Shown piece after piece: positions 24,796-31,939 of a DNA stretch of 51,111 nucleotides. The first letter of the stretch is position 1; every line of letters starts with the position of its first letter. Origin of the DNA: Escherichia phage tunus; sequence record NC_049816.1, one strand, 5' to 3'. A program made the translations under genes and the position numbers. The notes beneath the pieces are model-generated. The model was not told the origin of the DNA, ran no database searches, and saw nothing but the letters and a program-made list of their open reading frames with translations.

Positions 24796-25055
24796 AAACC
24801 TGATTCCTCCATAGTCTCGTTTATGCGCTTCCAGTTTTCGACTTGCTGATCTCTGTATCCATTCTCTCCGAACCATGCGGCAGCTTCCGCTTGCTCAGTC
24901 CCAGCAGGATCAAATGCGTGTTCTAGCTGGCTGAAAACTTCACGGGCCACTTGCTCAGGAATTTTAACCGTTGCCTGGATGCCGTCATCATCTCGCCAGC
25001 CAAAGGCCGCTAACATAATGCGCGCTTGCTGCTCTGACAGGTTAATCGTGATCAT
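24792..25055 (-). CDS. Hypothetical acidic protein
   Basis: ATG at 25055 overlapping upstream stop; Asp/Glu-rich. Confidence 0.4.
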   Translation of the reverse strand: MITINLSEQQARIMLAAFGWRDDDGIQATVKIPEQVAREVFSQLEHAFDPAGTEQAEAAAWFGENGYRDQQVENWKRINETMEESGL

Positions 25056-25264
25056 TCTTCTACTACCTCGCATTCGTCATGGTTAACACTAATATTGTCG
25101 CCAGCCTTGATAAACTCGCTGTTACGCGGCGCAATAACACAATAAGATCCGTCGCTGAAATGTCCGTCAACTTCCAGCACATCACCAACAACCAGGCCAC
25201 ATTGCTCAAGAGTGATTGATCCGTCGCCGTTGATAGTGTCGATTTTGGTGATTTTGATTTTCAT
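25052..25264 (-). CDS. Hypothetical protein
   Basis: 70 aa, RBS GAGGAAAG, downstream of promoter module 25297-25342. Confidence 0.45.
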   Translation of the reverse strand: MKIKITKIDTINGDGSITLEQCGLVVGDVLEVDGHFSDGSYCVIAPRNSEFIKAGDNISVNHDECEVVEE

Positions 25265-25831: not shown

Positions 25832-26080
25832 TCAGTAACAATCATTAACGTGAATCAGCACGGAAAAACGACACTTGCGTAAGCGGTGGCGCTTCTTGAC
25901 GTACATATAAGCATCGCTGTAATACTTAAATTCAGTGGCAATAATGCCGAAAAAGTCGTCTGTAACATAGTGCCAATTGCCGCCTAAGCTGCGTCGCTGC
26001 ACATGATAAGTAGAACAGTCTCGGCAAAATACGATCCGGTATTCCGGCTTAAACAGTCGTTTCAATGCGTTAAAAACCAT
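25832..26080 (-). CDS. Hypothetical Cys-containing protein
   Basis: 82 aa, RBS GAGGG; CRDC...C pattern. Confidence 0.4.
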   Translation of the reverse strand: MVFNALKRLFKPEYRIVFCRDCSTYHVQRRSLGGNWHYVTDDFFGIIATEFKYYSDAYMYVKKRHRLRKCRFSVLIHVNDCY

Positions 26081-26179
26081 AGTAGCGCCCTCATGCTATA
26101 AAGAAAAAGTAGCATTGATAATACCGCAATCATTGCGGAATGAAAATCAAAAGGTGGCTTAGGATTCGTTGCGTTATTG

Positions 26180-26560
26180 TTATTTCCCAGCATTGCGCGC
26201 GATCCTCTTGTAACCATAGTAGAAATCATCGCCTACGCCACGGAATTTTAACGCGTTACGCGCCAGGCGGCGGATTCGACGATTATCCAGTTTGCCGTAA
26301 TTGGTTGGCGCTTTAATCGTCTTGATTGGGCAGCCGCGATGGTTAGTGATTTGCTTGAGGGTAGCAACAATACCATCAAGCGAACGGATAGCGAAGCCGC
26401 CGAATCCAAGATCTTTATTGATTAGATAGCCATTGATGCCAGGGATTCCGAATCTTTTGCTATCAACCTTAACAATCTGGCCCTTCTTCATTCCGCTATC
26501 TGGAATTGCGTAAGTAACTAAGAATTTAGTGCCGACGCGAATTTTTCTGATGTTAACCAT
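26180..26560 (-). CDS. Hypothetical protein
   Basis: ATG at 26560 with RBS GAGAGGG; downstream of promoter module 26591-26636. Confidence 0.45.
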   Translation of the reverse strand: MVNIRKIRVGTKFLVTYAIPDSGMKKGQIVKVDSKRFGIPGINGYLINKDLGFGGFAIRSLDGIVATLKQITNHRGCPIKTIKAPTNYGKLDNRRIRRLARNALKFRGVGDDFYYGYKRIARNAGK

Positions 26561-26590
26561 TGTGATTCCCTCTCTTTGATTGGTGTTTGC

Positions 26591-26636
26591 ATTATAGCGA
26601 GGCATTGTGCCTCGCGTTTAGCAATTCGTGCTATTT
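26591..26636 (-). promoter_or_regulatory. Phage promoter module (variant box + 19-bp hairpin spacer + TATAAT)
   Basis: Box variant AAATAGCACGAATTGCTAAAC; spacer palindrome GCGAGGCacaatGCCTCGC; perfect -10. Confidence 0.5.
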
Positions 26637-27221
26637 AATCTTTGTGTGCTTCCATTTGACAGCATTGACGATCTCGTTTACAGCCAGTTCCGGCTTGCCG
26701 TCCTGCAAGTGGAAGTCATAGTGATGGATTCGATAGTGATAACCGCTCAGGTCAATGTAGCCTCTCGAATCGCCAGCAAACGTGAAGCCGTCGCGATGCA
26801 ATCGGCAAATATGCACCTCATGCCCTGCCTTAACAAGCGGCTTGACTTCTTCTGGGAATCCTCCATCGCTGATCACAACCGCTAAATCTCGGTACATCTC
26901 GTGAATCTCTTCAACCATTCGACGCCCGAAATAGTGATCTCCAAAAACTGGCTTCATTACATCCTCACTAATCCAGATCATGAATTGTCGAGGTGACTTG
27001 CCTCCTAAGATAACTTGAGGCTTTTCTTTTTGCTCTCGGTCGTTGTACAGGTCCATAAATTCATCGTATCGGTACACGCCCAGCATAGAAAAAGCAATAT
27101 CGAACATCGGCTGTTTGAATGACGCCTTGACAGCAGGGTAACGATGGCCCGTTAGGTAAGCTGCAATAGTGTCCTTCCCGCAGCCTGGCGGCCCATTAAG
27201 GATAATAATGTCTCGTTTCAT
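26631..27221 (-). CDS. P-loop nucleotide kinase (dNMP kinase / polynucleotide-kinase-like)
   Basis: 196 aa; Walker A NGPPGCGKDT at N-terminus and Walker-B-like VVISDGG; RBS AAGGGGAG. Confidence 0.65.
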   Translation of the reverse strand: MKRDIIILNGPPGCGKDTIAAYLTGHRYPAVKASFKQPMFDIAFSMLGVYRYDEFMDLYNDREQKEKPQVILGGKSPRQFMIWISEDVMKPVFGDHYFGRRMVEEIHEMYRDLAVVISDGGFPEEVKPLVKAGHEVHICRLHRDGFTFAGDSRGYIDLSGYHYRIHHYDFHLQDGKPELAVNEIVNAVKWKHTKIK

Positions 27222-27223
27222 GA

Positions 27224-27415
27224 TTATTCTCCCCTTGCTTTCAACACAGTAATTTCTGTTGTCTCGCTTAAAACCTTGAAATTTCTATTCTCGCTTTTAA
27301 TCGTCATATTGACAATCATAACCTGACCGCGCTCTATCATGTCGGCAAGCTCTCGAAGGTGACATGCAGTTTTGGCAATCTCTTCGCTTTTTTTGTCAAA
27401 TGGTGGCAATTGCAT
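27224..27415 (-). CDS. Hypothetical protein
   Basis: 63 aa, RBS GGAGGA. Confidence 0.4.
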   Translation of the reverse strand: MQLPPFDKKSEEIAKTACHLRELADMIERGQVMIVNMTIKSENRNFKVLSETTEITVLKARGE

Positions 27416-27568
27416 TTAGTTTCCTCCATAGCGAAAAATCGCATTAAATTTTTTCCCGCGCTTCTTGTCTTCGTTGCGCTTCTTGCGTTGCTTTTTCACA
27501 AGCTCCACATGCTCATCGTACCCGCGACGCTTCTTTTTGGTAATGATTTTTTCAAAGTTACGCATCAT
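27416..27568 (-). CDS. Highly basic microprotein (50 aa, Lys/Arg-rich)
   Basis: ATGATG at 27568 with RBS AGGGGG; stop overlaps next start (TAAATG); below track cut-off. Confidence 0.3.
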   Translation of the reverse strand: MMRNFEKIITKKKRRGYDEHVELVKKQRKKRNEDKKRGKKFNAIFRYGGN

Positions 27569-27624
27569 TTCCCCCTTTAGGTTTTCTCAACATGGCGCAC
27601 TGCATGAATGCGCCATAGCAAGAA

Positions 27625-27810
27625 TCACCACTCAAATTTCTGTTTGTCTCTGATAATCTCGTAAATTGCTAACCACACCCAAACAAACCAGAAAGCGAGA
27701 ACAATTTTATCGTCTTTGTCTGTCGCGTCAGAATATTTCACCAACGCACGGAACGTAAACAAGCCTGAAATGTAAAGAAAAACAACCAAAAAAGCAAGTA
27801 ACCAAATCAT
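27625..27810 (-). CDS. Small membrane protein (hypothetical)
   Basis: 61 aa, RBS GAGGGAG; two hydrophobic segments. Confidence 0.4.
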   Translation of the reverse strand: MIWLLAFLVVFLYISGLFTFRALVKYSDATDKDDKIVLAFWFVWVWLAIYEIIRDKQKFEW

Positions 27811-28070
27811 TTATTTTCTCCCTCTACTACCAGCGTGTAAAGCAATTCAGGATCAATCATGTTGCGGCGGCGTGGCTCTCGTGGCGAATCGGGCCATGCG
27901 CATTTTCCGTTTGACACAATATAGCCTACCAGGTCACTAAGTTTTGAGATTCCATCTCGACGGATAACGTCGTACCCAATATCCTTGCCGTCAATAGAAT
28001 GGATAGCAAAGAAGCTAGGCTCGCCGTCGATAACGTCCACCGCTTTAAAAAACTCAATCTTGTTAGCCAT
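27807..28070 (-). CDS. Hypothetical protein
   Basis: 87 aa, RBS GAGGA. Confidence 0.4.
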   Translation of the reverse strand: MANKIEFFKAVDVIDGEPSFFAIHSIDGKDIGYDVIRRDGISKLSDLVGYIVSNGKCAWPDSPREPRRRNMIDPELLYTLVVEGENK

Positions 28071-28101
28071 GATTTAATCCTCGTTTGTTGTTTATGGGCT
28101 T

Positions 28102-28147
28102 ACTATACCGCAAGCCCGATAATCTGTTTTTGCAAAAAGTGCTATTT
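28102..28147 (-). promoter_or_regulatory. Phage promoter module (box + 19-bp hairpin spacer + TATAGT)
   Basis: Box variant AAATAGCACTTTTTGCAAAAA; spacer palindrome around GGGCTTgcGGtatagtAAGCCC. Confidence 0.5.
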
Positions 28148-28303
28148 ACGAACGCATAACGCTGTTACATCCTTCCCACTATCTGACATGTGGAGAATAA
28201 CTTGCTTTCGCGCCTCCTGGCATCTTGATTCGCCGTGGAACTCCTGCGACTCAATAGCTGCGGAGTTGTAACTTGTGACAAAGATTAAAAGCAACCAAGT
28301 CAT
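28142..28303 (-). CDS. Hypothetical microprotein (53 aa) with hydrophobic N-terminus
   Basis: ATG at 28303 overlaps HAD gene stop (ATGA); 3' end overlaps the promoter box; below track cut-off. Confidence 0.25.
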   Translation of the reverse strand: MTWLLLIFVTSYNSAAIESQEFHGESRCQEARKQVILHMSDSGKDVTALCVRK

Positions 28304-28839
28304 TTTAAACACTCCACGCCGTGAGATTGCAGGTGAGCGTGTGGCTTGTCGTATTCCGTGACCTGATAGGTTGTGATCCCCAGGCTGCGGAAGTGCTTAA
28401 CCACGTTCGGCGAATCGTCAAAGGCGCAAACAATGCTGTCCAGGCCAATGGCGCGCAAGGCTTCTTCTTTAATAACCGTATCCTTTCGGTTGTCCTCCTG
28501 GCGGCGCATGATGATTTCGTCAAACTTCACACCGTTCTCATTCAACCATTTGCAGGTTTTATAGCGAACCTCGTCGCTACGTCCGGTCAAGATGACGATG
28601 GCAAATCCCGACACCCATAAACCGTTAATAACCGCGATAGTGCTTTTAATCGGTGAATCTCCGGCGGCGGCCCTGTTAAACTCGCGCCACGATTCCGTAA
28701 GGTGCAAGTTTTCAGTTGGCAGCAAATGCAAGCGATGCGATCCGTCCGATAATGTGCCGTCCAGGTCAACGATAACAATCGGCTTGCTGGTGATTAATTC
28801 GTACTTTTTGCCCCACAGTTCGAAAGTGTATTTTTTCAT
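28300..28839 (-). CDS. HAD-superfamily phosphatase (polynucleotide 3'-phosphatase / nucleotidase-like)
   Basis: 179 aa; HAD motif I IVDLDGTLSDG; ATGA-coupled to upstream gene. Confidence 0.7.
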   Translation of the reverse strand: MKKYTFELWGKKYELITSKPIVIVDLDGTLSDGSHRLHLLPTENLHLTESWREFNRAAAGDSPIKSTIAVINGLWVSGFAIVILTGRSDEVRYKTCKWLNENGVKFDEIIMRRQEDNRKDTVIKEEALRAIGLDSIVCAFDDSPNVVKHFRSLGITTYQVTEYDKPHAHLQSHGVECLK

Positions 28840-29045
28840 TGCATAGCCTCAATCTTTGCCGCCAGTTTATTTAACACGTTCGCCATGCGCCGTGCGCTCT
28901 CTGCCGAAAGTATTCCCCGAAAGTCTGGCATCCGCCCATATTCGAAAGTGCCATCTATGAAGATCTGATTTCCACGCTGATAAACGTCGATAGTGTCTCC
29001 GTAGTCGTCGGTGAATTTATATTTTGCTGTTTTGTTCTGTTCCAT
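28836..29045 (-). CDS. Hypothetical protein
   Basis: 69 aa, RBS GAGGAAG. Confidence 0.4.
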   Translation of the reverse strand: MEQNKTAKYKFTDDYGDTIDVYQRGNQIFIDGTFEYGRMPDFRGILSAESARRMANVLNKLAAKIEAMQ

Positions 29046-29047
29046 GA

Positions 29048-29275
29048 TTATTTCACTTCCTCAAAGGTTGCGATAAGGTCGGCGTAAGCGCAAATTTCGT
29101 TGCCACTTTGGCCGTTCAGGAACATGCGGAATCCCTGATTATTATTGACGTAAAACGATCCGGTTGATGTTCTCATCTTCTGCGCGGAGTAGATATTTCC
29201 CACCGTGAACATAAAGCCGCAACCTGGCGCTACACTGACGCACTTCATTTTCTTCTGGATGATTAAACTTTCCAT
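29048..29275 (-). CDS. Hypothetical protein
   Basis: ATG at 29275 with RBS GAGAGGGG. Confidence 0.4.
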   Translation of the reverse strand: MESLIIQKKMKCVSVAPGCGFMFTVGNIYSAQKMRTSTGSFYVNNNQGFRMFLNGQSGNEICAYADLIATFEEVK

Positions 29276-29305
29276 CGCGTTTCCCCTCTCGTTGAAAGTG
29301 AGGCC

Positions 29306-29350
29306 ATTATACCTGGCCCCACATTTGAGTTTTAACAATTCGTGCTATTT
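29306..29350 (-). promoter_or_regulatory. Phage promoter module (variant box + 18-bp spacer + TATAAT)
   Basis: Box variant AAATAGCACGAATTGTTAAAA; perfect -10. Confidence 0.5.
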
Positions 29351-30242
29351 ACACTTTGACCTTCCACTTAACCATCGTTCCGCGCTTGATGCTGATCTCA
29401 CCTGCAACGGTGCGGTTTTTTGCGCCGCCGTAGTGAAGCAGAAGAATAACAACGTCATCATGAATCTCGATCGTCTTTGGTGTAGCCGTTACTTCAAACC
29501 ACACACCATCATCAAGCCGGACTCCTTTTAGCGTGGCTGCAACTGGCATATCTTCAATTGCGCCCTGCGTTACGATTTCTTGATTTGCAAAGGCGCTCTT
29601 GTCAATACGCCAGCCTCCAGGCGCTTTCATTTCGGCAGCCGCTTTGTGGATCTCATCGCCAATGATTTTCTGAATTGACGTCTTACCGCCGCCGAATGGA
29701 GTTTCTCCAAATAAGTGTTTTGTAATGTCTTCCACGTAGTACACTTTATCTTTTTCGTTGTGCGGATTGAAATCGTTGTGAGCATTGACAAAGAAATCAA
29801 CTTTCAACCCTGATTTCTGACCATCGCTATAAACGCCATTGTCGCGTGATGTGAAGCGAATCGTTGAGTTACCAGTTGTGTGGAACGTGATCGGATACTT
29901 GATATTGTCCACACTTAAGCACCACAGCTTTTTGTAGTCGCAGGTTTTCATATTGACCATCGGAATCTCTGCGCGTTCCGGTGAGCGAACTGGTAACACC
30001 TGGCCCTTGTATGGCTTGTAGTGGAAGCTGGTATATCCTGGCATTGCGTAGCCATAGTCTTTAAGTGCGTTGTAGTGCTTGTTATGTGCATCAATGAAGT
30101 GTTCAATCTCCATGCTTGATGGCTCACGCTTGTAGCTATACAAATCAACCTTATGGCATGTTTTTTCATCGGTAAAAATGTAATGACCAATGCCGCGAGA
30201 TTCGAAGGTGATCGGGAATTTAATGTCAGCAAGTTTTAACAT
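29349..30242 (-). CDS. Hypothetical protein with internal N-terminal tandem duplication
   Basis: 297 aa, strong RBS AGGAGG; two homologous about 50-aa segments (IKFPITFESRG...IEHFIDAHN vs IKYPITFHTTG...VDFFVNAHN). Confidence 0.5.
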   Translation of the reverse strand: MLKLADIKFPITFESRGIGHYIFTDEKTCHKVDLYSYKREPSSMEIEHFIDAHNKHYNALKDYGYAMPGYTSFHYKPYKGQVLPVRSPERAEIPMVNMKTCDYKKLWCLSVDNIKYPITFHTTGNSTIRFTSRDNGVYSDGQKSGLKVDFFVNAHNDFNPHNEKDKVYYVEDITKHLFGETPFGGGKTSIQKIIGDEIHKAAAEMKAPGGWRIDKSAFANQEIVTQGAIEDMPVAATLKGVRLDDGVWFEVTATPKTIEIHDDVVILLLHYGGAKNRTVAGEISIKRGTMVKWKVKV

Positions 30243-30257
30243 TGTGTTTCCTCCTAA

Positions 30258-30440
30258 TTACTTAATTCTAACTTCAACGTCAATATCTGAGCTAGGGGCG
30301 AATAGCTGCGCCTTGCCATTTACACGAATGGTAAGAATGTTCTCTTTGCGGCAGTTATCCAGCACTAGGCGATATTTGCCAGCAAACTTAACCATCATTC
30401 CCGGCTTGACTTCGCTCATTTTGATGATCTTATCCATCAT
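30258..30440 (-). CDS. Hypothetical protein
   Basis: 60 aa, ATGATG start with RBS AAAGGGG; preceded by the 200-nt leader. Confidence 0.45.
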   Translation of the reverse strand: MMDKIIKMSEVKPGMMVKFAGKYRLVLDNCRKENILTIRVNGKAQLFAPSSDIDVEVRIK

Positions 30441-30636
30441 TAACCCCTTTCACATAAATAACCGTTTAATCTTTGGTGACGGGCTTCACTTCGTCGGTAG
30501 CCTCAGCTCAGTGACCTATCTAGCGTTCTGCCTGGTGGCGAGTGTGATAGTTCTGGCCTCACGGTTGGGAATCCTGACACTTCGATCAAGCCCCTGCGTT
30601 ACTCCTCTCCCGCAGCAATCCTTGCCGCCCGTCTAT
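30441..30636 (-). ncRNA. Candidate structured RNA / cis-regulatory leader (about 195 nt, GC-rich, no ORF)
   Basis: Lies between a promoter module and the 30440 start; no start-codon-initiated ORF on the transcribed strand; possible closing helix GACGGGC...GCCCGUC and internal hairpins. Confidence 0.3.
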
Positions 30637-30642
30637 GTGTGT

Positions 30643-30688
30643 ATTATGCCTGGTTATCGCTTTTGAGTTTTAACAAAAAGTGCTATTT
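30643..30688 (-). promoter_or_regulatory. Phage promoter module (box + 19-bp spacer + CATAAT)
   Basis: Exact box AAATAGCACTTTTTGTTAAAA on minus strand. Confidence 0.5.
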
Positions 30689-30872
30689 AGAATTTTACCT
30701 CTTCCACAAGCTCAACCATCTTGTAACCAAGACGATAAGAGTCACCGAACAACAAGATCCCCATAAATTCATCGTGGCTTATTGACTCTTTGCCAACCGT
30801 TCTAAGCTCGCCGTTGTGAATCACAGTATCGCCGATCTTGATTTCTGATTTATGGACTAATTTCGTTTTCAT
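30687..30872 (-). CDS. Hypothetical protein
   Basis: 61-aa ORF with weak Shine-Dalgarno GGGTGA. Confidence 0.4.
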   Translation of the reverse strand: MKTKLVHKSEIKIGDTVIHNGELRTVGKESISHDEFMGILLFGDSYRLGYKMVELVEEVKF

Positions 30873-30887
30873 TTATTCACCCGCTAA

Positions 30888-31073
30888 TTAAAAGAACGCT
30901 ACATAGTTTGCAATGCCTTTGGCGTCGTCGTTTGGCATTGCTTTTACAGCCAGGTCATAACCTGCCTCTACCTTCTGCTTTGCTGTTTCTTCGTTGTAGC
31001 CCCAGATAACCAGGATTTTAACTACGTTTTCTTTGTTCAGGACTTTAAGGTCTTTGGTGATGCGACGTGCCAT
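30888..31073 (-). CDS. Hypothetical protein
   Basis: 61 aa, RBS GAGGAAAC. Confidence 0.4.
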   Translation of the reverse strand: MARRITKDLKVLNKENVVKILVIWGYNEETAKQKVEAGYDLAVKAMPNDDAKGIANYVAFF

Positions 31074-31150: not shown

Positions 31151-31418
31151 TTGTCTCGACGGTCATATGTTCTGTCTTCGTGCCTTTGCCATTGCTTTTC
31201 GACACTTCCCAGCTAGTAGCGCCCTTGCAGTTGGTGAAGTAAACAGTGCGATCGTCATAGAATCGGTAAACGGTGCAACCGTCAGCGGTGAATAGCTCCC
31301 TTACGCTGTAGTCATCGCCAGGGTTAGCCATCTGCACATTGCCAACATGCGCGCCATCTTCTTTGCATCCGGTCAGGAATGCCATTGCCGCCAAAACGCT
31401 GATTAATGCCTTTTTCAT
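31146..31418 (-). CDS. Small lipoprotein, second candidate exclusion / surface lipoprotein
   Basis: 90 aa, RBS AAGAGGAAG; signal peptide MKKALISVLAAMAFLTGC with lipobox. Confidence 0.55.
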   Translation of the reverse strand: MKKALISVLAAMAFLTGCKEDGAHVGNVQMANPGDDYSVRELFTADGCTVYRFYDDRTVYFTNCKGATSWEVSKSNGKGTKTEHMTVETK

Positions 31419-31879
31419 TGCTCTTCCTCTTTGATGATTTCGCGGATCATATCCTGGTAGCGGCTTACGCCCTCACAAGCTCCAGCCAGTTTATCCCCTT
31501 CCAGGTCAACGATATTCGGGATTGCTGCCAGTATGCGATCGGCAAACTTTTTGATCGCCCTTGCCTTGATGGCTGGCAATTCTTCGGGTGTGATGATTTT
31601 CCTTTTCGATTCGCGGACCATGCGGAAAACGTAAAATTTATCATCTTCCGTTTCCTCTACCTTGATGCTTACCCGACCTGCGGCCCTTACTTCTGGAACG
31701 CGGTTGATAATGGTCCGGCTGTAGGATGAACTGCGCGTGATCTTGTAGCAGTCGTCACCGCTTAACATTCCGGCCAGGTCAATTAGTGACATTTTATACT
31801 CTTCAATATCGCCACTAGCCAGGCGGCGACCAAGCTCGCGAAGCCAATCGCAATAGTCCTTAGTGGTCTTCTGTTCCAT
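31415..31879 (-). CDS. Hypothetical early protein (first gene of leftward early unit)
   Basis: ATG at 31879 with RBS GGAGGAAAGG; the track's upstream ATG overlaps the promoter -10. Confidence 0.5.
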   Translation of the reverse strand: MEQKTTKDYCDWLRELGRRLASGDIEEYKMSLIDLAGMLSGDDCYKITRSSSYSRTIINRVPEVRAAGRVSIKVEETEDDKFYVFRMVRESKRKIITPEELPAIKARAIKKFADRILAAIPNIVDLEGDKLAGACEGVSRYQDMIREIIKEEEQ

Positions 31880-31910
31880 TTCCTTTCCTCCAGTTGTTGA
31901 CTGTTGGCGC

Positions 31911-31939
31911 ATTATAAAAGCTATTTGGTGCGTGTCAAT
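31911..31939 (-). promoter_or_regulatory. sigma70-type early promoter TTGACA-N17-TATAAT (leftward)
   Basis: Consensus hexamers; resembles the promoter at 1554-1581. Confidence 0.55.

What the first reader, a model, noticed from the sequence alone, without database searches (positions are those of the whole stretch)
26631..30242. Nucleotide / nucleic-acid end-processing module: P-loop kinase, HAD phosphatase and a 297-aa internally duplicated protein
Within 3.6 kb lie a 196-aa P-loop kinase (GPPGCGKDT), a 179-aa HAD phosphatase (IVDLDGTL) and a 297-aa protein with a clear internal tandem duplication. Kinase plus 3'-phosphatase as separate genes recalls a split polynucleotide kinase/phosphatase or a dNMP-salvage pair. 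I could not assign the 297-aa protein; I found no ligase KxDG or 2H motif.
Basis: partly seen in the sequence, partly recalled or inferred. Interest (0 to 1): 0.55.

Follow-up and report, generated by a model that had tools for sequence, protein, structure and literature searches.

The report
Phage nucleotide kinase–phosphatase pair plus orphan
Three early genes of a T1-like E. coli phage: a known kind of deoxynucleotide kinase, a stand-alone phosphatase related to the T4 end-healing enzyme, and an unrelated repeat-containing protein of unknown function. This is mostly ordinary and is not a split nucleic-acid repair enzyme.

Summary
The three ORFs, their motifs and the internal duplication are real. 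The window is almost a whole Warwickvirus genome (Drexlerviridae), 98.7% identical to phage ExeQuayColi.

- **196-aa P-loop protein.** It is a T4-gp1-type dNMP kinase, not a polynucleotide kinase. Its best fold match is 1DEK, and a profile comparison with gp1 gives 95.9% probability. It is 82% identical to the KarlJaspers DNK and 45% identical to Rao1 R1DNK. Zeng et al. showed that these enzymes phosphorylate all four dNMPs and trigger the Kongming defence.
- **179-aa protein.** It is a stand-alone T4-Pnkp-type HAD phosphatase (PF25109). All six residues that I recall as essential in T4 are conserved.
- **Linkage of the two genes.** They form a conserved HAD→kinase cassette: 70 of 80 related loci carry both, and the stop and start codons often overlap. 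Here about 1.1 kb of small ORFs separates them. The genome has no ligase and no tRNA genes.
- **297-aa protein.** It is a Drexlerviridae-only orphan with two copies of a ~55-aa domain (one to three copies in relatives) and an SH3-like barrel. Nothing links it to the enzymes.

The most likely role of the pair is deoxynucleotide salvage from degraded host DNA. The phosphatase substrate is untested. Low interest.

The parts
26631..27221 (-). dNMP kinase (DNK), T4 gp1 family, 196 aa; P-loop G10-T18 with catalytic Lys16
   Evidence: phrog_139 E 9e-51. AF2 pLDDT 92, top PDB fold hit 1DEK, TMq 0.69. hhalign against the gp1 family gives 95.9% probability over 135 columns. 82% identical to the KarlJaspers DNK and 45% to R1DNK.
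28300..28839 (-). Stand-alone HAD phosphatase of the T4 Pnkp phosphatase-domain family, 179 aa; nucleophile motif D25-L-D27-G-T; no kinase domain
   Evidence: PF25109 HAD_PNKP 74.9 bits against a cut-off of 27.6. PDB sequence hits are Pnkp1 4xrp and T4 Pnkp 1ltq/5uj0, phosphatase part only. D25, D27, R36, R87, D120 and D142 align with T4 D165, D167, R176, R213, D254 and D278.
29349..30242 (-). 297-aa Drexlerviridae-specific orphan protein (phrog_7116, unknown function)
   Evidence: No Pfam, NCBIfam, PADLOC or PDB match. Only 44 representatives among 1.84 billion proteins. Found in 223 phage records, essentially all T1-like.
30072..30242 (-). Repeat copy 1 of the 297-aa protein (aa 1-57), beta4-alpha
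29733..29921 (-). Repeat copy 2 of the 297-aa protein (aa 108-170), beta4-alpha; this is the copy that single-repeat relatives such as T1 retain
29352..29579 (-). C-terminal small beta-barrel of the 297-aa protein (aa 222-297), SH3-like; holds the family's invariant E230 and the nearly invariant M232, P233, A236 and E259
27224..28312 (-). 4-5 small early ORFs (50-87 aa) between the kinase and the phosphatase; no known function; not part of the enzyme pair
   Evidence: In many relatives this interval is absent and the two genes overlap.
28836..29338 (-). Two small early ORFs (69 and up to 96 aa) between the phosphatase and the 297-aa gene; unknown function
31911..31938 (-). Perfect sigma-70 consensus promoter (TTGACA-16-TATAAT), probably driving the leftward early gene cluster that contains all three genes
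   Evidence: No minus-strand terminator-like site was found between it and about 24.5 kb.

Best explanation
The region is part of the leftward early operon of a Warwickvirus (a T1-like phage).

**Kinase.** Gene 26631-27221 encodes a broad-specificity deoxynucleoside-monophosphate kinase of the T4 gp1 type. It uses ATP to convert dNMPs released from degraded host DNA into dNDPs, which host Ndk turns into dNTPs for phage replication. This same activity makes such phages visible to the Kongming (KomABC) defence.

**Phosphatase.** Gene 28300-28839 encodes a stand-alone HAD phosphatase of the T4 Pnkp phosphatase-domain family with an intact active site. It most likely removes 3'-phosphates from DNA-breakdown products (3'-phosphorylated ends, 3'-dNMPs or deoxynucleoside 3',5'-bisphosphates), so that they can enter the 5'-dNMP to dNDP route.

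**The pair.** The two genes are an ancestral HAD-then-kinase cassette. In this genus, small ORFs have pulled them apart.

**The 297-aa protein.** It is an unrelated, non-enzymatic accessory early protein made of two copies of a ~55-aa domain and an SH3-like barrel.

**Shown:** family membership of both enzymes, the gene-order linkage, and the domain architecture of the orphan. **From the literature:** dNMP kinase activity of the homologues. **Inferred:** the phosphatase substrate and the salvage role.
For: **Kinase.**
- phrog_139 matches at E 9e-51.
- The AF2 model has pLDDT 92. Its best PDB fold match is the T4 dNMP kinase 1DEK (E 1e-6, TMq 0.69), followed by adenylate kinases. T4 Pnk is not in the top 50.
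- hhalign against a gp1 family alignment gives 95.9% probability, E 6e-9, over 135 columns.
- It is 82% identical to the KarlJaspers DNK and 45% identical (E 6e-58) to R1DNK.
- R1DNK phosphorylates dAMP, dGMP, dCMP and dTMP in vitro. Its K15A mutant is inactive as a Kongming trigger, and the KarlJaspers DNK triggers Kongming (bioRxiv 10.1101/2024.12.20.629578).
- K15 and the escape-mutation sites R61, M45 and L136 of R1DNK correspond to K16, R62, M46 and L141 here, which are invariant or nearly invariant in the family.

**Phosphatase.**
- PF25109 scores 74.9 bits. PDB sequence hits cover only the phosphatase parts of Pnkp1 and T4 Pnkp.
- All six catalytic positions of T4 are conserved.

**Linkage.**
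- In 70 of 80 viral loci that carry the kinase, the HAD gene lies upstream on the same strand.
- About 20 loci show a 4-bp stop/start overlap. None is a fusion.
- The same order occurs in Klebsiella Webervirus, Rao1 and the Autographiviridae phage ECBP5, usually just after a metallophosphoesterase nuclease.

**Phosphatase is not a 5'-dNMPase.** Rao1 carries a 57%-identical HAD gene immediately upstream of its DNK, yet is fully sensitive to Kongming, and T5 Dmp supplied in trans rescues it.
Against: - No activity has been measured for this HAD subfamily, so the 3'-phosphate substrate is extrapolated from T4 Pnkp.
- The HAD carries a ~16-aa insertion after motif I that T4 Pnkp lacks. T5-type Dmp 5'-nucleotidases have an insertion at the same position, so specificity may differ from T4.
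- The kinase also occurs without the HAD gene (10 of 80 loci; L043), so the pairing is not obligatory.
- Deleting dnk in Rao1 caused no measurable fitness cost, so the importance of salvage is unproven.
- Polynucleotide kinase activity of these DNKs has never been tested.
Confidence: 0.72

Rival explanations
1. Split polynucleotide kinase/phosphatase. The HAD protein removes 3'-phosphates and the P-loop protein phosphorylates 5'-OH ends of broken DNA or RNA, healing damage inflicted by host nucleases. This would be a two-gene version of T4 Pnkp.
For: - The HAD is of the Pnkp type.
- The two genes are tightly linked and often translationally coupled.
- In Autographiviridae relatives the pair, or the kinase alone, sits between a metallophosphoesterase and an ATP-dependent DNA ligase. 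This recalls the kinase-phosphoesterase-ligase triad of bacterial Pnkp.
Against: - The kinase is homologous to gp1 and NMP kinases throughout, and resembles T4 Pnk only in the P-loop.
- A 45%-identical homologue is a demonstrated dNMP kinase.
- No Asp is invariant in family residues 19-118, where Pnk-type kinases place their general base.
- This genome has no ligase and no tRNA genes.
- E. coli's own RNA ligase RtcB needs 3'-P/5'-OH ends (my own knowledge), so healing would work against it.
Confidence: 0.08
2. The HAD is a 5'-deoxynucleotidase like T5 Dmp. It would balance the kinase or drain dAMP, acting as a counter-measure to the DNK-triggered Kongming defence.
For: - Dmp phosphatases often co-occur with DNKs in phage genomes and block Kongming.
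- The window HAD shares with Dmp the motif-I extension DLDGTxxDxxHR and an insertion before motif II (VPG01 Dmp, 23% identity, pairwise E 1e-4).
Against: - Dmp proteins do not match PF25109, whereas this protein does so strongly.
- The Arg residues that I recall as essential for the T4 3'-phosphatase are conserved.
- Rao1 has a 57%-identical HAD gene directly upstream of its DNK and is still restricted by Kongming unless T5 Dmp is added.
- Translationally coupling a 5'-dNMPase to a dNMP kinase would create a futile cycle.
Confidence: 0.15
3. The 297-aa protein is a functional third component of the module, for example an adaptor, a sealing enzyme or a substrate-binding subunit.
For: It lies 0.5 kb upstream of the HAD gene in the same operon, and this synteny holds in T1, TLS and Warwickvirus relatives.
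Against: - It is absent from most loci that carry the HAD-kinase pair (Webervirus, Rao1-like, ECBP5).
- It has no nucleotidyltransferase, 2H or other catalytic signature, only an SH3-like barrel.
- Its domain copy number varies from one to three, and the gene is split or truncated in some close relatives.
Confidence: 0.03

Closest known systems
Phage dNMP kinases that trigger Kongming: Rao1 R1DNK (XGX96911.1) and KarlJaspers/Bas06 DNK (QXV82329.1); bioRxiv 10.1101/2024.12.20.629578
   Same: Same family and length. The window kinase is 82% identical to the KarlJaspers DNK and 45% to R1DNK. The catalytic Lys and the escape-mutation sites are conserved. A Pnkp-type HAD gene lies upstream in Rao1 too.
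   Different: This particular protein has not been assayed. Here the HAD gene lies 1.1 kb away rather than 49 bp.
T4 gp1 deoxynucleotide kinase (PDB 1DEK)
   Same: Best structural match (TMq 0.69). Profile homology extends over the P-loop core and the NMP-binding helices. Both have the GKDT P-loop.
   Different: Only about 14-23% identity. The window protein is 45 residues shorter and lacks gp1's inserted segment. gp1 R177 is Gly121 here. From my own knowledge, gp1 prefers hm-dCMP, dGMP and dTMP, whereas R1DNK takes all four dNMPs.
Phosphatase domain of T4 polynucleotide kinase/phosphatase (PseT; PDB 1LTQ, 5UJ0) and Capnocytophaga Pnkp1 (4XRP)
   Same: Same Pfam family, PF25109. The DxDGT nucleophile motif and the GR, KD and DD motifs are conserved.
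   Different: There is no fused kinase domain. A ~16-aa insertion follows motif I. The genome encodes no RNA ligase partner. The database label 'polynucleotide kinase' is therefore a misnomer.
T5 Dmp 5'-deoxynucleotidase (anti-Kongming HAD phosphatase)
   Same: A HAD enzyme that co-occurs with a phage DNK. It shares the motif-I extension and the position of the cap insertion.
   Different: Similarity is only marginal. Dmp does not match PF25109. The Rao1 orthologue of the window HAD does not protect against Kongming.
Yeast Tpp1 and plant ZDP stand-alone DNA 3'-phosphatases (my own knowledge, not tested here)
   Same: The concept of a Pnkp-type phosphatase that works without a kinase domain.
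   Different: They belong to a different HAD subfamily (PNK3P), are eukaryotic, and act in DNA repair.

Membership tests
T4 gp1-type dNMP kinase (phage DNK) | P-loop NTPase with GxxxxGK(D/S)T and a catalytic Lys | tested here: met
   G10-PPGCGKDT-18. K16 is invariant in 22 homologues.
T4 gp1-type dNMP kinase (phage DNK) | Homology to gp1 beyond the P-loop (core plus NMP-binding helices) | tested here: met
   hhalign A2 against A3: 95.9% probability, E 6e-9, 135 columns. Foldseek top hit 1DEK, TMq 0.69. phrog_139 E 9e-51.
T4 gp1-type dNMP kinase (phage DNK) | ATP-dependent phosphorylation of dNMP to dNDP | not testable with these tools
   Shown in vitro for the 45%-identical R1DNK. The 82%-identical KarlJaspers DNK triggers Kongming, and for R1DNK triggering was shown to require kinase activity (K15A).
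T4 Pnk-type 5'-OH polynucleotide kinase | Homology to the Pnk kinase domain beyond the Walker A motif | tested here: not met
   hhalign aligns only 25 columns, the P-loop. T4 Pnk is absent from the top 50 fold hits. No AAA_33 or Pnk Pfam hit.
T4 Pnk-type 5'-OH polynucleotide kinase | Conserved Asp general base after strand beta2 (T4 Asp35, recalled from the literature) | tested here: not met
   No invariant Asp lies between residues 19 and 118 of the family alignment. The invariant residues there are S34, F35, K36, F40, A43, F55, Y59, R62, K65, E66, R78, F80, I82, I84, S85, E86, K90, G94 and G99.
T4 Pnkp-type HAD 3'-phosphatase domain (PF25109) | Pfam score above the gathering threshold | tested here: met
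   74.9 bits against a cut-off of 27.6, covering profile positions 3-140 of 143.
T4 Pnkp-type HAD 3'-phosphatase domain (PF25109) | Essential T4 residues D165, D167, R176, R213, D254, D278 (list recalled from Wang, Lima and Shuman 2002) | tested here: met
   They align with D25, D27, R36, R87, D120 and D142, all invariant across five sequences.
T4 Pnkp-type HAD 3'-phosphatase domain (PF25109) | 3'-phosphomonoesterase activity on nucleic-acid ends or 3'-nucleotides | not testable with these tools
   I found no biochemical data for this stand-alone subfamily.
Bifunctional Pnkp (kinase fused to phosphatase) | Both domains in one polypeptide | tested here: not met
   The protein is 179 aa and consists of the HAD domain only. 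None of 72 HAD-kinase pairs is fused.
End-healing plus sealing pathway (T4 Pnkp + Rnl1, bacterial Pnkp-Hen1) | A ligase encoded with the healing enzymes | tested here: not met
   No ligase appears in the annotation of the 98.7%-identical genome or in Pfam scans of the unannotated large ORFs. No tRNA genes were found.
T5 Dmp-type 5'-deoxynucleotidase (anti-Kongming) | Sequence membership | tested here: inconclusive
   23% identity and pairwise E 1e-4 to VPG01 Dmp. Only motif I aligns with Bas26 Dmp. Dmps do not match PF25109.
T5 Dmp-type 5'-deoxynucleotidase (anti-Kongming) | Protects a DNK-carrying phage from Kongming | not testable with these tools
   Indirect evidence against: Rao1 carries a 57%-identical HAD gene next to its DNK and is still restricted.

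The most novel reading that the evidence does not exclude
The conserved, translationally coupled HAD-kinase cassette could be a DNA-end repair device. In some podophages it is flanked by a metallophosphoesterase and an ATP-dependent DNA ligase. In this reading the gp1-like kinase moonlights as a 5'-OH DNA kinase and the Pnkp-type phosphatase clears 3'-phosphates, countering host defence nucleases that leave 'dirty' ends. Separately, the 297-aa protein, with its variable number of repeats, could be a decoy or inhibitor of a host defence protein.
Probability: 0.08. Interest if true: 0.6.

Novelty: new member of a known kind. Interest (0 to 1): 0.25.

Why it matters
- **Annotation.** The 179-aa protein is labelled 'polynucleotide kinase' or '3'-phosphatase, 5'-polynucleotide kinase' in the phage records examined here, yet it has no kinase domain.
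- **Phage therapy and host range.** By homology, the 196-aa kinase is the trigger of the Kongming dITP-signalling defence. Phages with this gene are predicted to be restricted by KomABC hosts.
- **Open point.** The conserved coupling of a Pnkp-type phosphatase to a dNMP kinase, across at least two phage families, is described but unexplained. Defining the phosphatase substrate would show whether phages process 3'-phosphorylated DNA-breakdown products for salvage.
- **The orphan.** The 297-aa protein is one more uncharacterised early gene, of modest interest.

Tried and rejected
- **Kinase against PDB sequences.** Sequence and profile searches of the PDB with the kinase found only P-loop matches. 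The fold search and a self-built gp1 profile were needed.
- **Rosetta-stone fusion.** The Pbunavirus protein annotated '3'-phosphatase, 5'-polynucleotide kinase' has a HAD N-terminus but no P-loop in its C-terminus. None of 72 HAD-kinase pairs is fused.
- **Defence-system models.** PADLOC models gave nothing.
- **Spurious hits.** Three long repeat-rich hits of the exhaustive search (P0153, P0156, P0163) look like low-complexity or unrelated repeat proteins, and I disregarded them.
- **RNA features.** There are no tRNA genes and no Rfam matches in the window. The 246-nt gap at 30441-30686 is not unusually structured (z = +0.91).

Full report
**What the window is.** Region 26000-31000 is 98.7% identical to Escherichia phage ExeQuayColi (Drexlerviridae, Tempevirinae, Warwickvirus). 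About 300 T1-like phage records match it. At 51,111 bases, the window is essentially a whole genome of this type. The flagged genes lie on the minus strand among about 25 mostly tiny genes. A perfect sigma-70 consensus promoter sits on the minus strand at 31938-31911, and no minus-strand terminator-like site occurs until about 24.5 kb. All three genes are therefore probably part of one leftward early transcription unit.

**Observation check.** The three ORFs have exactly the stated coordinates and lengths, and both quoted motifs are present. The duplication inside the 297-aa protein is real:
- Residues 2-54 align with residues 106-155 at 32% identity (E 3e-6).
- The local alignment score is 68 against 24.7 +/- 4.7 in 5000 shuffles, none of which reached it.
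- The AF2 model gives both copies the same four-strand-plus-helix topology.
- The copy number varies among relatives. T1 and many other Drexlerviridae have one copy followed by the C-terminal domain (about 165 aa). A metagenomic relative in the same gene context has three copies (P0001, 374 aa), the extra one being 55% identical to copy 2.

**The kinase.**
- Pfam gives nothing above threshold, but PHROG 139 ('deoxynucleoside monophosphate kinase') matches at E 9e-51.
- Sequence searches of the PDB find only P-loop matches.
- An AF2 model with pLDDT 92 has the T4 gp1 dNMP kinase (1DEK) as its best structural match (E 1e-6, TMq 0.69). Adenylate kinases and phosphomevalonate kinase follow. T4 polynucleotide kinase is not among the top 50.
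- I rebuilt the T4 gp1 sequence from memory and confirmed it as 100% identical to GenBank X03016 gene 1. I then aligned it with six distant relatives. The profile-profile comparison with the kinase family gives 95.9% probability over 135 columns, covering the core and the NMP-binding helices.
- The same profile aligns with T4 Pnkp over only the 25 P-loop columns.

**Literature on the kinase.** Zeng et al. (bioRxiv 10.1101/2024.12.20.629578) showed that phage dNMP kinases (DNKs) trigger the Kongming KomABC defence by feeding dITP synthesis.
- Their supplementary table gives the tested sequences. The DNK of Escherichia phage KarlJaspers (Bas06), which triggers Kongming toxicity, is 82% identical to the window protein.
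- R1DNK of phage Rao1 is 45% identical (E 6e-58). In vitro it phosphorylates dAMP, dGMP, dCMP and dTMP.
- R1DNK K15 and the escape-mutation sites R61, M45 and L136 correspond to K16, R62, M46 and L141 here. These are invariant or nearly invariant in the family.
- This gene is therefore a dNMP kinase of an experimentally characterised kind.

**The phosphatase.**
- The 179-aa protein matches PF25109 (HAD_PNKP) at 74.9 bits against a cut-off of 27.6.
- By sequence it matches only the phosphatase parts of Capnocytophaga Pnkp1 and T4 Pnkp.
- In an alignment with T4 residues 150-301, the six residues I recall as essential for the T4 3'-phosphatase (D165, D167, R176, R213, D254, D278) align with D25, D27, R36, R87, D120 and D142.
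- The protein has no kinase domain, so the widespread label 'polynucleotide kinase' is wrong.
- It carries a ~16-residue insertion after motif I that T4 lacks. T5-type Dmp 5'-nucleotidases have an insertion at the same position, but overall similarity to Dmp is marginal, and Dmps do not match PF25109.

**Are the genes linked?** For the two enzymes, yes.
- Among 80 viral contigs retrieved with the kinase profile, 70 carry the HAD gene, always upstream and on the same strand.
- About 20 loci show a 4-bp stop/start overlap typical of translational coupling. None of the 72 pairs examined is fused.
- The order phosphatase-then-kinase, usually just after a metallophosphoesterase 'DNA repair exonuclease', is seen in Klebsiella Webervirus, in Rao1 (gp56-gp57-gp58) and in the Autographiviridae phage ECBP5, where an ATP-dependent DNA ligase follows.
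- A related podophage contig has metallophosphoesterase-kinase-ligase without the HAD gene, so the pairing is frequent but not obligatory.
- A 2026 paper on phage KanT1 notes the same pair after the exonuclease and suggests that it extends the replication module by 'enhancing nucleotide supply' (PMC13164509).
- In the window, the pair sits in the early cluster instead, separated by 1078 bp of small ORFs.

**Split Pnkp or salvage pair?**
- Against end healing: the kinase is a gp1/NMP-kinase homologue with demonstrated dNMP kinase activity in its relatives. Its family has no invariant Asp where Pnk-type kinases place their general base. The genome has no DNA or RNA ligase and no tRNA genes.
- Against a Dmp-like 5'-nucleotidase role for the HAD: Rao1 has a 57%-identical HAD gene (E 1e-66) 49 bp upstream of its DNK. 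It is nevertheless strongly restricted by Kongming, and T5 Dmp supplied in trans rescues it. A 5'-dNMPase translationally coupled to a dNMP kinase would also be a futile cycle.
- The reading that fits best is a 3'-phosphate-specific phosphatase that acts on DNA-breakdown products and feeds, or clears the way for, the 5'-dNMP to dNDP step. This is inferred from the T4 enzyme's known substrates, not shown.

**The 297-aa protein.**
- An exhaustive search of 1.84 billion representatives found only 44 relatives. A tblastn search found 223 phage records, essentially all T1-like.
- No member matches Pfam. A family profile finds nothing in the PDB.
- The AF2 model (mean pLDDT 73) has three confident domains joined by disordered linkers.
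- The barrel holds the family's conserved residues (E230 invariant; M232, P233, A236 and E259 nearly invariant).
- The protein is absent from most loci that carry the enzyme pair. It is split or truncated in some close relatives.
- I see no evidence that it belongs with the enzymes. It looks like a modular, non-enzymatic accessory early protein, and its function remains open.

**Verdict.** The kinase is already characterised in close homologues. The phosphatase is a new, uncharacterised stand-alone member of a known family. Interest is low, with a small residual chance that the cassette has an end-repair or counter-defence role.

Noticed in passing
window 31911-31938 (minus strand): A perfect sigma-70 consensus promoter (TTGACA, 16 nt, TATAAT) lies just upstream of a DUF7174 gene (31415-31912). 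It is probably the early leftward promoter of the whole small-gene cluster.
   Followed up: partly
window 30441-30686: A 246-nt stretch has no minus-strand ORF inside an otherwise tightly packed minus-strand operon. ExeQuayColi annotates an 80-aa plus-strand CDS there. The minus-strand RNA is not unusually structured (z = +0.91), and there is no Rfam match.
   Followed up: partly
GenBank MG0656xx records: More than 20 records named 'Campylobacter phage', with host given as C. jejuni, are 80-83% identical at protein level to these E. coli T1-like genes. They are probably mis-assigned hosts or contaminating coliphages.
   Followed up: no
L003 2253-5519 (phage ECBP5) and L043 4719-7523: In Autographiviridae relatives the dNMP kinase sits in a row: metallophosphoesterase, (HAD phosphatase), kinase, ATP-dependent DNA ligase. 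This resembles the kinase-phosphoesterase-ligase triad of bacterial Pnkp. The HAD gene is present in ECBP5 and absent in L043.
   Followed up: partly
L084 1477-2508 (Pseudomonas phage PA8P1): The Pbunavirus protein annotated '3'-phosphatase, 5'-polynucleotide kinase' has a HAD_PNKP N-terminus, an acidic low-complexity linker and a C-terminal domain with no P-loop. The kinase annotation is unsupported.
   Followed up: partly
window 28300-28839, residues 37-52 of the HAD protein: A ~16-residue insertion directly after HAD motif I is absent from T4 Pnkp, but T5-type Dmp 5'-nucleotidases have an insertion at the same position. It could be a minimal cap that favours small-molecule substrates.
   Followed up: no
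L094 1981-3105; L086 (phage tonijn); BFVD hits from tonnikala and damhaus: The 297-aa family varies even among close relatives: one, two or three N-terminal repeats, and split or truncated genes. In phage tonijn the HAD gene is longer (236 aa), and a gene annotated as an endonuclease lies immediately upstream of it.
   Followed up: partly
window 25052-25264, 30258-30440, 30687-30872: Several 60-70-aa early ORFs have sequences that look like small beta-barrel (SH3-like) proteins, like the C-terminal domain of the 297-aa protein. I did not test whether they are related to it or to the stand-alone SH3 lysis-module protein described for Drexlerviridae (PMC13164509).
   Followed up: no
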